Shown: one piece after another, positions 2,106 to 5,100 of the stretch | Layout of the letters: every line of letters starts with the position of its first letter | Numbering within the stretch: position 1 is the first letter of the stretch | Assembly (NCBI RefSeq): GCF_036507355.1 | Contig: NZ_AP027877.1 | Origin: Escherichia coli | GTDB lineage: Bacteria > Pseudomonadota > Gammaproteobacteria > Enterobacterales > Enterobacteriaceae | Strand: one strand, 5' to 3' | DNA: 64,000 nt | Program-made: the position numbers

Positions 2106-5100
2106 TGATGGGCGGTATTCAGAAACGGCGATTGTCGTGAGAACAGAATGGTTGCACCAGAATACAGATATAAAAAAACCGACATGACAGTCGGTTTTTT
2201 TATTTTTTCCGCCCAAGACTTGGTGGTTCCGGGCAGAAATGAAACAGTCCTCATCTAGCAAGTGAATTATAAGTCAGGATGCCTACATATTCAAACAGCT
2301 ATGTTGGCGATACAATCCCGACGCTAGTAGTGATACTGCCTCAAGGGATTACCGCAGTGCGGAAAAGTACTTTTAAGTCCTGGTCAGGATACAGGTGGTG
2401 CTGATTCTGGTGCTCTAATTTGGAGAGAGGCAGTCCTCATCTAGCACATGAAGAAAATCATAGTTACAGGCAACGTAAGGGTAAGCTGTGATTGTCTTTC
2501 TCCCTTAAGGGAGCAACGGATGAAAACTTTTCTCGATAAAGTTCTCATCGTTCTTAAGGCGCTAATCGCGCTGCTGGAACTGATCCGTCAGTTTATTGAA
2601 CAACTGAGGAAACGTAGCTAAGGCCGAAGGTTTACCACCTTCGGCCTTTAAAAAAACCGACATGACAGTTGGTTTCATATTTATTGCCAAAATGCACACT
2701 GTTCATGCCAGATGCGGCGTAAACGCCTTATCCGGCCTACACAATCTTGCAAAATCAATATATTGCACGCTCTTCGTAGGCCTGATAAGCGTAGCGCATC
2801 AGGCAATCTAACACCTGTCATCACCCCGCAAACTGCCTGAACAGCGCCTTACCCTTAACCAGTCTCGCGCCCAGCCAGCCGCCGAAAAGCGACAGCAGCA
2901 GCGCACCGCTGCACGGCAGAACAATCCACAATCGCCAGTCTGGCTCCCACGGAAAATCAAACACTTTCGCCTGCAACACTGCCAGCGCAGTTTCCGCACC
3001 AATTGCGGCCACCAGGCCGGAAACAAACCCAAGCATGGCGAACTCACACCACAACGTGGTACGCAGCAGTTTTTTCCCCGCACCGAGTGTGCGCCACACC
3101 ACCAGCTCCTGATGACGCTGACGCATTCCCACCTGCACCTGTGCCAGCAACAGCAACATACCGCAGGCGGTGACCAGCACCACCATCACCTCCAGCGCCC
3201 GACTTACCTGCTCCAGCACCTGACCGACCTGTTTTAAAATCGCGCCAATGTCTAACAGGCTAATGGTAGGGAACTGGCGGTTGAGTTGCGTCAACATGCC
3301 GTTGCCATTCTCCCAGCGGAAACTGGTAAGCCAGCTCTGCGGTTGCCCGTCTAATGCCCCTTCAGGGAAAATAAAATAGAAATTAGGCCGCAGACTTTCC
3401 CAGTCCACTTTGCGCAGGCTGGTCACTTTAGCGCGGAACTCCTGGGTATCGCCCATAAAAGTCACGGTATCACCGAGGGCAACGTTTAAGCGTTTCGCCA
3501 GCCCCTCTTCCATCGACACTTCATCGGCTTTTGGCGGCCAGTTACCGGCGACAATCGGATTATGATCGGGCCGCGTATTTTGCCAGGTAAGATTGAGTTC
3601 GCGATTGAGCGCCTCATCTTCATTGCCTTCTGTCGGCTTGCCGTTAATCGCCGTCAGTCTCGCCCGCACCACCGGATAAAACGATTCCGGGACTATCTGA
3701 TGTTCCGCGAGGAACGCTTTTAGCGGTGCTACCTGTTCTGTGGCGATGTTGATTAAAAAGTAGTTCGGGCTTTCTGGAGGTAGCTGCTGCTGCCAGCGGT
3801 CGAGCAGATCGCCACGCAACACCAGCAGCAGTGCCAGCAGCATAAAGGAGAGCGAAAATGCCGAAAGCTGGCTTAACGTTGACCACGGCTGACGTAACAG
3901 GCGGCTAACCGCCAGGCGCAGAGGCAGCGATTTCAGCGTCATGCGGCGAAGTACATTCAGCAGCATCCAGCCCAGCACACCGCACAGCAAAGCCAGTACT
4001 ACCGCGCCCGCCAGCACCGCCCAAAGCAGCATGCTGCCACCCATTAATCCGGCGAGCAGCAGCACAACCACCACACTGACAATCGGCAGATAAAACTTCA
4101 GCGGCCAGACGTTCGCAACCACATCATTACGTAATACGCGTAAAGGCTGCGTTGCCAGCAACAAGCGGTATGGTCGTAGCCCCACCAGCAGCGAGATGAC
4201 CGTCATGGTGCCCAGCGCCCATAGCCATGGCCAGAGGCTGGCTGGCGGTAGTGCAGCAGGCAGAACGGGCTTGAGCAGCACCATCAACACGTTTTCGAAC
4301 AACAGGCCTATCGCCCCACCGGTAACGGCTGAAAGCGCCAGCACCATCAACCACTGACCGACGATTAGCTTACGCAGTTGCGCTCGCCCTGCCCCCAGCG
4401 TTTTGAGGATCGCCACCAGATCGTAGCGACTGCGACAGTAATGATTCATCGCCACCGCCACCGCTGCCACTGCCAGCAGCAAGGTCAGAAGCGCCGAAAG
4501 CAGCAGGAACTGCTGCGAGCGTTCCATCGATCGCCCCAGCGCGCCTTCGTCCTGTTCCAGACCGTACCAGCGTTGTTCGGGTTTAAGCTGAGGTAACAAC
4601 CATTTCTCATAGCCGTCGAGTTGGTTCTCGTTGCCGCCGAATTTATAGCGCCAGTTGACCCGACTCCCCGGCTGCACGGCTCCGGTTTTATCGACATCCG
4701 CCAGATTCATCATCAGACGCGGAGCCATCTGGAAGGGGTTAAAACCGGAATCCGGTTCCTGAATCACTTCTCCGGCAATCCGCAAAGTGGCATCGCCCAC
4801 GTCAATGGTGTCGCCCGTTTTCAGGTTAAGCAGTGCCATCAGGCGTGGGGCCAGCAATACGCTGCCCGCCTGCGGTTTCAGGCCAGGGGGATTGGTTTGC
4901 AGATCGCCATACATCGGGTAGATATCATCCACCGCTTTGACGTTCGCCAGCTGCGGTGTGTCGCCTGCAAATGTCATGGTGGCGAAAGTCAGCTGCTTGC
5001 CGACTTTCAGGCCGCGCTTTTGCGCTTCCTCCAGCCACGCTTGCGGCACTTCGCGCGAACTGCGCAGCGCCCGATCGCCCGCCATAAACTCACGGCTTTG

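What the first reader, a model, noticed from the sequence alone, without database searches (positions are those of the whole stretch)
2109..2820. The ybbP-selU junction lacks the RhsD element and carries a 33-codon toxin-like ORF flanked by hairpins and a duplicated 16-mer
In K-12 the rhsD element lies between ybbP and ybbB/selU; here only ~710 bp separate them. The segment has (i) a Rho-independent hairpin at 2172-2209 with a near-copy at 2648-2680, (ii) a 16-nt direct repeat cagtcctcatctagca at ~2245 and ~2433, and (iii) an ORF with a Shine-Dalgarno sequence encoding MKTFLDKVLIVLKALIALLELIRQFIEQLRKRS followed by a strong hairpin. A small hydrophobic helix with a long structured 5' leader and duplicated leader elements is the hallmark of type I toxin-antitoxin loci (Ldr, ShoB, Zor classes), where an sRNA pairs with the leader. 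The duplicated 16-mer could be the sRNA target or a remnant of a tandem second copy.
Basis: inference. Interest (0 to 1): 0.55.

Follow-up and report, generated by a model that had tools for sequence, protein, structure and literature searches.

The report
Second DinQ/AgrB toxin-antitoxin locus
The selU-ybbP gap holds a small membrane-toxin gene and its antisense RNA antidote.

Summary
The family, however, is DinQ/AgrB, not Ldr, ShoB or Zor.

- **Antitoxin:** Rfam AgrB matches the minus strand at 2258->2170 with 53.6 bits (gathering score 40). A TTGAAT-17-TATAAT promoter sits just upstream.
- **Toxin:** the ORF at 2520-2621 matches NCBIfam toxin_DinQ with 40.1 bits (cut-off 30).
- **Homology:** the region aligns with the K-12 dinQ-agrA/agrB locus.
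- **The 16-mer repeat:** copy 1 (2245-2260) encodes the sRNA 5' end on the minus strand. Copy 2 (2431-2446) is its target in the toxin leader, next to a hairpin that sequesters the Shine-Dalgarno (SD) sequence.
- **Presence/absence:** the unit is a 572-bp module (about 2121-2692). It is found at this site in about 1314 of 5426 complete E. coli genomes. RefSeq already names the ORF dinQ there. K-12 has the RhsD element at this junction instead.

Differences from canonical dinQ:
- It has no LexA box.
- It has one agr gene plus a 40-nt terminator remnant.
- The sRNA-target duplex is weaker.

The 33-codon length is a rare stop-loss allele (TAA->CAA at 2601) of a 27-codon gene. Function is inferred by homology only. 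This is a known family (dql genes, Kristiansen 2016), so interest is low.

The parts
2121..2692 (.). 572-bp presence/absence module holding the whole toxin-antitoxin unit
   Evidence: Alignment with empty-site genomes (Z226-1, A3, GN05476), where selU and the REP/ybbP side are joined directly. The module is present with at least 80% coverage in 1314 of 5426 complete E. coli genomes.
2170..2258 (-). AgrB-family antitoxin sRNA gene (about 89 nt)
   Evidence: Rfam RF02891 AgrB, 53.6 bits against a gathering score of 40, covering model positions 1-84 in full. The same hit is found in ETEC1738 and E2348/69 copies.
2266..2294 (-). Sigma-70 promoter of the sRNA: -35 TTGAAT (2294-2289), 17-nt spacer, -10 TATAAT (2271-2266); transcription start about 2258
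   Evidence: It is the only promoter-like site the scan found in 2000-2900, matching 10 of 12 positions. Its position fits the start of the Rfam hit.
2170..2203 (.). Perfect 14-bp hairpin with A- and T-runs on both sides. It is the sRNA terminator and probably also the terminator of selU.
   Evidence: terminator-like on both strands. It is homologous to the agrA and agrB terminators of K-12.
2311..2316 (+). Likely -10 (TACAAT) of the toxin mRNA; the -35 region (TTCAAA, 2290-2295) overlaps the sRNA -35 on the other strand
   Evidence: It aligns with the conserved -10 of dinQ and of five dql relatives (TATGAT, TATAAT, TATCAT). The promoter scan did not call it because the -35 is weak, so this assignment is an inference.
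2323..2650 (+). Predicted toxin mRNA, about 328 nt with a 197-nt leader
   Evidence: The start is placed by alignment to dinQ +1 (GTTAGC in dinQ, GCTAGT here). The end is placed at the hairpin 2620-2648 plus UUU, the same layout as the K-12 dinQ terminator. No transcript data were available.
2335..2342 (+). Leader element 1 (ACTGCCTC), complementary to element 2 (2427-2434)
   Evidence: In the MFE fold of the full-length RNA, 2337-2342 pair with 2427-2432.
2422..2444 (+). sRNA target site in the leader. It contains copy 2 of the 16-mer and overlaps element 2.
   Evidence: sRNA nt 1-23 pair here: 14 contiguous Watson-Crick pairs, then 8 more pairs (4 of them G-U) and one mismatch. The 36-nt duplex energy is -46.0 kcal/mol, against -24.2 +/- 3.2 for shuffled sRNA.
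2500..2513 (+). Anti-SD/SD hairpin CUCCC-UUAA-GGGAG (elements 3 and 4)
   Evidence: inverted repeat I14. It is closed in the MFE of the full-length RNA and of the RNA with the sRNA site blocked. It corresponds to CUCCAU..AUGGAG in dinQ and dql leaders, with an A-U to C-G change.
2520..2621 (+). DinQ-family toxin ORF: 33 codons here, 27 codons in the common allele (stop at 2601-2603)
   Evidence: NCBIfam NF041472 toxin_DinQ, 40.1 bits against a cut-off of 30. RefSeq annotates it as dinQ. Position 2601 is C here and T in ETEC1738 and E2348/69.
2620..2648 (+). Toxin mRNA terminator hairpin (12-bp perfect stem, 5-nt loop, UUU tail)
   Evidence: inverted repeat I7. It aligns with the dinQ and dql terminators.
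2649..2688 (.). Degenerate direct copy (83%) of the sRNA terminator. It is probably the 3' remnant of a second agr gene or of a tandem duplication of the 478-bp unit.
   Evidence: direct repeat D1. It lies inside the indel module. It is present in the other E. coli copies but absent from relatives in other genera. Its origin is inferred.

Best explanation
This is a chromosomal paralogue of the E. coli dinQ/agrB type I toxin-antitoxin system, that is, a 'dql' (dinQ-like) locus. Two divergent promotors face away from each other, with overlapping -35 regions. One drives an ~89-nt AgrB-like sRNA leftwards (2258->2170). The other drives a ~330-nt mRNA rightwards (about 2323-2650) that encodes a 27-aa amphipathic membrane peptide, which is 33 aa in this allele.

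The following mechanism is inferred by analogy with dinQ:
1. The full-length mRNA is translationally inert. Its 5' end (elements a and 1) pairs with the region around 2427-2445. That leaves the anti-SD free to close the SD hairpin at 2500-2513.
2. Removing the 5' part of the leader by processing would free element 2 to pair with the anti-SD and allow translation.
3. The sRNA 5' end pairs with 2422-2444, which takes element 2 away again and recloses the SD hairpin. It probably also exposes the duplex to RNase III.
4. If the peptide is made in excess, it inserts into the inner membrane and depolarises it.

Unlike canonical dinQ, this locus has no LexA operator, so SOS induction is not expected.

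What is shown and what is inferred:
- Shown here: homology of both genes and of the leader, the complementarity, the promoter and terminator motifs, and the distribution.
- Inferred: transcription, processing, toxicity and repression.
For: - **sRNA.** Rfam AgrB hit at 53.6 bits, above the gathering score of 40, on the minus strand, with a 10/12 sigma-70 promoter just upstream.
- **Toxin.** NCBIfam toxin_DinQ at 40.1 bits, above the cut-off of 30. The core shares 15 of 23 identical residues with K-12 DinQ, and its best 15-residue hydrophobic stretch is comparable to those of DinQ, TisB and ZorO.
- **DNA homology.** The DNA aligns with K-12 dinQ-agrA/agrB across the sRNA, leader, ORF and terminator.
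- **Pairing.** The sRNA-leader duplex is -46.0 kcal/mol, against -24.2 +/- 3.2 for shuffles. Across seven loci, each leader's own sRNA is its best or tied-best partner, and the paired bases change together between loci.
- **Leader structure.** The leader fits the family consensus structure: 9 of the 38 predicted pairs keep pairing through changes on both sides in at least one sequence. In the window's own row, the clearest case is UA->AU inside the element 2:3 helix. The 5'-end pairing a/a' also changes on both sides, GUUAG/CUAAC to GCUAG/CUAGC.
- **Architecture.** An AgrB hit lies divergently upstream of every related toxin gene that was fetched.
- **Annotation.** RefSeq names the ORF dinQ in the listed genomes that carry it; the module is present in about 1314 complete E. 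coli genomes.
- **Experimental precedent in the family.** DinQ/agrB (PMC3567139, PMC5066626) and DqlB/agrB of pOXA-48, including compensatory-mutation tests (PMC12365149).
Against: - No transcript, toxicity or repression data exist for this locus. No paper in the searched library holds dinQ together with ybbP, selU, mnmH or ybbB.
- The cognate duplex is the weakest of the loci compared: -39.3 kcal/mol for 30 nt against -41 to -59 elsewhere. It has only 14 contiguous Watson-Crick pairs.
- MFE folding of the putative processed mRNA does not open the SD. GGAG stays paired to CUCU at 2413-2416, whereas the K-12 +44 control does open.
- The toxin promoter has a weak -35, and the scan did not call it.
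- The window allele has lost the normal stop codon.
- Other strains carry a 108-bp deletion of the target, SD and start codon, or an IS between the two promoters. The locus is therefore dispensable and sometimes decaying.
Confidence: 0.85

Rival explanations
1. The locus is an evolutionary relic. The sequence is homologous to dinQ/agrB but no longer works as a toxin-antitoxin pair, because the toxin is silent or harmless and the sRNA is idle.
For: - The sRNA-target duplex is weaker than in relatives.
- The toxin promoter has a weak -35.
- This window carries a stop-loss allele.
- Other strains carry a deletion allele or an IS insertion.
- The locus is absent from about three quarters of E. coli genomes with no obvious cost.
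Against: - 1257 records match the module at 99% identity or more, with both genes, the SD, the terminators and the pairing intact.
- The leader keeps the family structure through compensatory changes.
- The peptide core is nearly invariant across genera.
- 14-18 contiguous pairs is in the range I recall for other type I antitoxins (my own knowledge, not tested here).
Confidence: 0.12
2. The pieces are unrelated: a chance small ORF lying among terminators and REP elements, with a chance repeat.
For: The ORF is only 33 codons long. The region is rich in palindromes and REP sequences.
Against: - Independent profile hits above curated thresholds support both the RNA and the peptide.
- The whole region aligns with K-12 dinQ-agrAB.
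- The same architecture occurs in five other loci.
- By my own arithmetic, an exact 16-mer repeat is expected about 6e-5 times by chance.
Confidence: 0.01
3. It is the true, SOS-inducible dinQ gene relocated, as the RefSeq name 'damage-inducible type I toxin DinQ' implies.
For: PGAP gives it that name. The peptide passes the toxin_DinQ equivalog cut-off.
Against: - Genomes with this module also keep the canonical arsR-gor dinQ as a second place in the record.
- DNA identity to canonical dinQ is only about 70%.
- No LexA box is present. The best site matches 5/6 core and 11/20 total positions, against 6/6 and 15/20 for K-12 dinQ.
Confidence: 0.02

Closest known systems
dinQ/agrB (with agrA) of E. 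coli K-12, arsR-gor intergenic region (Weel-Sneve 2013, PMC3567139; Kristiansen 2016, PMC5066626)
   Same: - Divergent, non-overlapping sRNA and toxin genes.
- An ~85-nt sRNA with the same terminator stem and central hairpin.
- An ~330-nt mRNA with a ~200-nt leader, the same conserved blocks (AAGUCCUGG, GGUGGUGC, GUGACAGGCA) and an SD hairpin.
- A 27-aa peptide sharing the core ALIALLELIR.
- The sRNA 5' end pairs upstream of the ribosome-binding site.
   Different: - The genomic site differs (selU-ybbP).
- DNA identity is about 70%.
- It has no LexA operator.
- It has one agr gene plus a 40-nt terminator remnant downstream of the toxin, instead of two full agr genes upstream.
- The start codon is ATG instead of GTG.
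- The C-terminus reads RQFIE instead of RFLLQLLN.
- The sRNA-target duplex is shorter and rich in G-U pairs.
- Predicted cross-pairing with the canonical partners (-26 to -34 kcal/mol) is weaker than AgrA-dinQ (-36), a pair reported not to repress (PMC5066626).
dql (dinQ-like) genes of Enterobacteriaceae chromosomes and plasmids (Kristiansen 2016, PMC5066626); DqlB/agrB addiction module of pOXA-48 (PMC12365149)
   Same: - The family definition fits: similarity in the 5' UTR plus signature residues, a sigma-70 promoter, a terminator and an SD.
- Some strains carry a dql gene together with dinQ, as here.
- The closest peptides (...ALLELIRQFID/E) lie on ICE-like elements in Salmonella and Enterobacter, on an F-like plasmid in K. 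aerogenes and on Yersiniaceae chromosomes. Each has an AgrB hit upstream.
   Different: - It is not DqlB: NF041473 scores 23.9 bits, below the cut-off of 35.
- It sits in a core-genome intergenic site with no mobility genes nearby.
- I could not see the paper's figure or supplement, so I cannot say whether this exact locus is one of its 14 listed dql genes or is its 'dqlA'.
zorO/orzO, tisB/istR-1, shoB/ohsC (other trans-encoded type I systems of E. coli)
   Same: General logic: a divergent sRNA, a long leader that is inert until processed, and a small hydrophobic helical toxin.
   Different: No sequence membership. OrzO-P scores 24 bits against a gathering score of 60, and that hit lies over the terminator only. 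NCBIfam returns only the two DinQ-type models.

Membership tests
DinQ/AgrB (dql) type I toxin-antitoxin family | Peptide matches the DinQ profile above the curated threshold | tested here: met
   NF041472 toxin_DinQ at 40.1 bits against a cut-off of 30. Precomputed PF28061:DinQ is recorded on identical and near-identical proteins.
DinQ/AgrB (dql) type I toxin-antitoxin family | AgrB-type sRNA (sequence plus structure) encoded nearby | tested here: met
   RF02891 at 53.6 bits against a gathering score of 40, full-length match, minus strand 2258->2170.
DinQ/AgrB (dql) type I toxin-antitoxin family | sRNA gene lies 5' of the toxin mRNA, is divergently transcribed and does not overlap it | tested here: met
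   The sRNA starts at about 2258 on the minus strand and the mRNA at about 2323 on the plus strand. Five relatives and K-12 have the same layout.
DinQ/AgrB (dql) type I toxin-antitoxin family | At least 15 nt of complementarity between the sRNA 5' end and the leader upstream of the ribosome-binding site | tested here: met
   sRNA nt 1-23 pair with 2422-2444: 22 pairs, of which 14 are contiguous Watson-Crick. The 36-nt duplex energy is 6.9 sd below shuffles.
DinQ/AgrB (dql) type I toxin-antitoxin family | Conserved 5' UTR with elements 1-4 able to form the mutually exclusive pairings 1:2, 2:3 and 3:4 | tested here: met
   1:2 and 3:4 form in the full-length MFE, and 2:3 forms in the truncated RNA. 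The consensus fold of seven leaders keeps these helices through compensatory changes.
DinQ/AgrB (dql) type I toxin-antitoxin family | Processing of the leader opens the SD and activates translation | tested here: inconclusive
   In the MFE fold of the putative processed RNA, GGAG stays paired to 2413-2416, whereas the K-12 +44 control opens. Neither the processing site nor translation can be tested here.
DinQ/AgrB (dql) type I toxin-antitoxin family | [quoted passage not shown] | not testable with these tools
   Only hydrophobicity is supportive: the best 15-residue window scores 2.73, like DinQ at 2.85.
Canonical dinQ (SOS regulon member, arsR-gor locus) | LexA operator overlapping the promoter | tested here: not met
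   No match to the LexA consensus with up to 3 mismatches. The best site matches 5/6 core and 11/20 total positions, against 6/6 and 15/20 in K-12.
Canonical dinQ (SOS regulon member, arsR-gor locus) | Orthologous position between gor and arsR | tested here: not met
   It lies between selU and ybbP. Genomes with the module have a second, canonical dinQ place.
DqlB subfamily (plasmid addiction toxin) | Peptide passes the DqlB profile | tested here: not met
   NF041473 at 23.9 bits against a cut-off of 35. DNA identity to plasmid dqlB loci is 67-77% over part of the query only.
   OrzO-P scores 24.1 and 19.5 bits against a gathering score of 60. No Rdl or OhsC hit appears at E<=10. No Ldr, ShoB or Zor model appears at E<=10 in NCBIfam.

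The most novel reading that the evidence does not exclude
The most novel reading the evidence leaves open is that this is a functional, SOS-independent DinQ paralogue with its own insulated antitoxin. It would be carried on a 572-bp cassette that descends from ICE or plasmid addiction modules and occupies the same selU-ybbP hotspot that holds the RhsD element in other strains. In that case about a quarter of E. coli strains would run two DinQ-type toxins under different inputs. The 33-aa stop-loss form, with its added QLRKRS tail and net charge of +4, could have altered membrane activity.
Probability: 0.3. Interest if true: 0.3.

Novelty: already known. Interest (0 to 1): 0.18.

Why it matters
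- **Blind-read validation.** A reading of raw sequence alone can recover a real type I toxin-antitoxin locus. Here it also guessed correctly that the repeat could be the sRNA target.
- **Annotation gaps.**
  - In the RefSeq records inspected, the toxin is named but the antitoxin sRNA is not.
  - The ORF is called with inconsistent lengths (27, 33, 50/51 aa or not at all).
  - The word 'damage-inducible' is transferred to a paralogue that has no LexA box.
- **Biology.** For work on persistence or membrane toxins in non-K-12 E. coli, about 24% of strains carry a second DinQ-type toxin. As far as the searched literature shows, nobody has characterised it.

None of this changes what is known about the family.

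Tried and rejected
- **Pfam scan.** The Pfam-A scan of the 33-aa peptide returned nothing. The copy searched evidently does not match PF28061, which is recorded for identical proteins. I did not treat this as evidence against membership.
- **Whole-sRNA duplex.** RNAduplex with the whole sRNA gave an inflated 88-nt duplex that ignores intramolecular structure. I replaced it with runs using only the 5' 30-36 nt.
- **LexA regulation.** Considered and rejected.
- **Target-site duplication.** I looked for one at the module ends by comparing with empty sites and found none. The 40-nt repeat lies inside the module, so insertion by a transposase-like event is not supported.
- **Remnant in Rhs-bearing genomes.** I looked for a trace of the module in K-12-type genomes. 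Sensitive BLAST found only the canonical dinQ.
- **Supplement of Kristiansen 2016.** It is not held, so the dqlA/dqlB assignment of this locus could not be checked.
- **Literature link.** A search linking dinQ to ybbP, selU or mnmH found no paper holding both.
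Full report
**1. What is in the sequence**

The window runs allS (19-945, +), selU/mnmH (1014-2108, +), a 712-bp gap, then ybbP (2821-5235, -).
- A perfect 14-bp hairpin lies at 2170-2203. It scores as terminator-like on both strands.
- An 83% direct copy of 2171-2210 lies at 2649-2688.
- The exact 16-mer CAGTCCTCATCTAGCA lies at 2245-2260 and 2431-2446, extending to 22 nt at 91% identity.
- The SD AAGGGAG (2507-2513) sits 6 nt before ATG 2520, and the ORF ends with a stop at 2619-2621.
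- A perfect 12-bp hairpin follows at 2620-2648.

In K-12 the same junction holds rhsD, ybbC, ylbH, ybbD, ylbI and ylbG. The statement that the RhsD element is missing here is therefore correct.

**2. What it is**

A scan of 1800-3100 against Rfam found AgrB (RF02891) on the minus strand at 2258->2170. The score is 53.6 bits against a gathering score of 40, and the full model is covered. The only sigma-70-like promoter the scan found in the region lies directly upstream on that strand. It reads TTGAAT (2294-2289), 17 nt, TATAAT (2271-2266), which places the start at about 2258.

The peptide passes NCBIfam NF041472 'damage-inducible type I toxin DinQ' at 40.1 bits (cut-off 30). It fails the DqlB model at 23.9 bits (cut-off 35).

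The DNA aligns with the K-12 gor-arsR intergenic region across four parts:
- the agr gene;
- the leader blocks, such as AAGTCCTGGTCAG and GGTGGTGC;
- the ORF, including GCGCTGCTGGAACTGATCCG;
- the terminator.

The locus is therefore a DinQ/AgrB-family type I toxin-antitoxin unit, not an Ldr, ShoB or Zor one. OrzO-P reaches only 24 bits against a gathering score of 60, and that hit lies on the terminator.

**3. The repeats explained**

Copy 1 of the 16-mer, read on the minus strand, is nucleotides 1-14 of the sRNA. Copy 2 is its target in the toxin leader.
- sRNA nt 1-23 pair with 2422-2444. There are 14 contiguous Watson-Crick pairs, then U-G, U-G, U-A and C-G, one A/A mismatch, then U-G, U-A, U-G and C-G.
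- With the 5' 36 nt, the duplex energy is -46.0 kcal/mol, against -24.2 +/- 3.2 for 500 shuffles.
- I compared seven loci: this one, K-12, two ICE copies, two Yersiniaceae chromosomal copies and one F-like plasmid copy. Each leader's own sRNA is its best or tied-best partner, and the paired bases differ between loci in a compensating way.
- This locus has the weakest cognate duplex, at -39.3 kcal/mol for 30 nt.
- Predicted cross-pairing with canonical dinQ or AgrB (-33.9 and -26.1) is weaker than AgrA-dinQ (-36.0). AgrA is reported not to repress dinQ (PMC5066626). The two systems should therefore be insulated from each other; this is an inference.

The second hairpin (2649-2688) copies the sRNA terminator in the same orientation and lies just after the toxin terminator. 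It is present in other E. coli copies but not in relatives from other genera. It is most simply the 3' remnant of a second agr gene, or of a tandem duplication of the 478-bp unit. This too is an inference.

**4. The leader**

Alignment with dinQ and five relatives places the -10 at TACAAT (2311-2316) and the start at G2323 (GCTAG here, GTTAG in the others). The -35 is weak, and the scan did not call this promoter.

Folding results:
- **Full-length RNA:** 2337-2342 pair with 2427-2432 (elements 1:2), and the SD hairpin CUCCC-UUAA-GGGAG is closed.
- **RNA truncated at the position aligned to dinQ +44:** 2422-2432 pair with 2493-2503 (elements 2:3).
- **sRNA site blocked:** the SD hairpin closes again.

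This reproduces the published dinQ switch (PMC5066626), with one exception. In the truncated RNA, GGAG stays paired to CUCU at 2413-2416, while the K-12 +44 control opens. The SD-opening step is therefore inconclusive for this locus.

RNAalifold on the seven leaders gives a common structure in which 9 of 38 pairs show compensatory changes. In the window's row, the clearest one is UA->AU inside the 2:3 helix. The a/a' pairing also changes on both sides, from GUUAG/CUAAC to GCUAG/CUAGC.

**5. Differences from canonical dinQ**

- No LexA box is present. Nothing matches the consensus within 3 mismatches. The best site scores 5/6 core and 11/20 overall, against 6/6 and 15/20 for K-12 dinQ. The ICE, plasmid and Yersiniaceae relatives also lack one.
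- There is one agr gene instead of two.
- The start codon is ATG instead of GTG.
- The C-terminus is three residues shorter.
- Genomes with this module also keep the canonical dinQ, so this is a paralogue.

**6. The 33 codons**

Related peptides in E. coli, Salmonella, Yersiniaceae, Klebsiella and Enterobacter end at ...LIRQFIE...LIRQFID or ...LIRQFIN. That is 27 residues counted from the start that follows the SD.
- Position 2601 is C here (CAA). It is T (TAA) in ETEC1738 and E2348/69.
- None of the 1324 complete E. coli genomes that match 2540-2612 is identical to the window. Nearly all the listed ones show one mismatch.
- The 33-aa form is nevertheless real. It occurs at the same site on eight contigs read, with places shown from three different samples.

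The window therefore carries a rare stop-loss allele that adds QLRKRS and raises the net charge from +1 to +4.

**7. Distribution and mobility**

About 1314 of 5426 complete E. coli genomes carry the module with at least 80% coverage, and 1257 records match at 99% identity or more. Most other genomes diverge right after the selU stop, as K-12 does with its Rhs element. A few have an empty site. Comparison with those sets the module at about 2121-2692 (572 bp), with no target-site duplication.

Two decay variants exist:
- A 108-bp deletion (2432-2539) lies between the 10-nt microhomologies AGTCCTCATC and AGTTCTCATC. It removes the target, the SD and the start codon.
- An IS481-family element is inserted at about 2293/2294 in E2348/69, between the two promoters.

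The nearest relatives sit in ICE-like conjugation gene clusters, on an F-like plasmid and on Yersiniaceae chromosomes. About 1640 plasmid records carry more distant dinQ/dqlB-type loci.

**8. Comparison with what is known, and verdict**

The mechanism of DinQ/agrB was worked out in K-12 (PMC3567139, PMC5066626). The second paper defined 'dql' genes on chromosomes and plasmids and noted strains that carry both dql and dinQ. DqlB/agrB of pOXA-48 was validated as an addiction module, with compensatory mutations (PMC12365149). RefSeq already names this ORF dinQ, and the Rfam AgrB model finds the sRNA.

The family, the mechanism and the gene call are therefore known. What is not documented in the literature I could search is any experiment on this particular locus, its antitoxin annotation, or its lack of a LexA box.

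Novelty is 'already known' and interest is low.

Noticed in passing
window 2601: The window has C here where ETEC1738 and E2348/69 have T. This turns the normal TAA stop after codon 27 into CAA and extends the toxin by QLRKRS. No complete RefSeq E. coli genome matches 2540-2612 exactly. The 33-aa form does occur on eight contigs, with places shown from three samples.
   Followed up: yes
L002 (E. coli O127:H6 E2348/69) 1897-2943; equivalent to window ~2293/2294: An IS481-family transposase element is inserted between the sRNA gene and the toxin gene, inside the overlapping -35 regions. This may uncouple or silence one or both promoters.
   Followed up: partly
L007 (strain 2017.09.02CC); equivalent to window 2432-2539: A 108-bp deletion lies between the 10-nt microhomologies AGTCCTCATC (2432-2441) and AGTTCTCATC (2540-2549). 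It removes the sRNA target, the SD and the start codon but keeps the sRNA gene, leaving an antitoxin-only allele. H40 shows the same 93% coverage.
   Followed up: partly
window 2699-2811: REP/BIME-type palindromes lie between the module and ybbP. They give sub-threshold Rfam hits to naRNA4 (36.6 bits against 59.5) and ES036 (35 against 37.6). They are also present in empty-site genomes, so they are not part of the TA module.
   Followed up: partly
L001, L002, L007 and rows: RefSeq annotation of this gene is inconsistent. The ORF is called as 27 aa or 51 aa in these records, or not at all. Protein databases also hold 33-aa and 50-aa versions. In the three records inspected, the AgrB-like sRNA is not annotated. 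The product name 'damage-inducible' is transferred although no LexA box is present.
   Followed up: partly
L009, L014 (ICE-like conjugation clusters), L013 (F-like tra region), L011/L012 (Yersiniaceae chromosome between an ABC permease gene and lacZ): The closest peptide relatives (...ALLELIRQFID) sit mostly in mobile elements. Each has a divergent AgrB-family sRNA about 240-340 nt upstream. This suggests the E. coli chromosomal module derives from addiction modules of mobile elements.
   Followed up: partly
alignment A4, columns 97-100 with 197-200 (window 2413-2416 with 2510-2513): In the RNAalifold consensus of seven dinQ/dql leaders, the SD GGAG pairs with an invariant upstream CUCU in every sequence. 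The summary of the published four-element model that I read does not mention this pairing. It may be a further layer of SD occlusion or a folding artefact.
   Followed up: no
window 2448-2519: The frame upstream of the toxin start is open from ATG 2448, giving a 57-aa ORF. Its translation (VTGNVRV...PLREQR) resembles that of relatives in Salmonella. This is probably a by-product of conserved leader RNA sequence, since in K-12 only the 27-aa peptide is made (PMC3567139).
   Followed up: no
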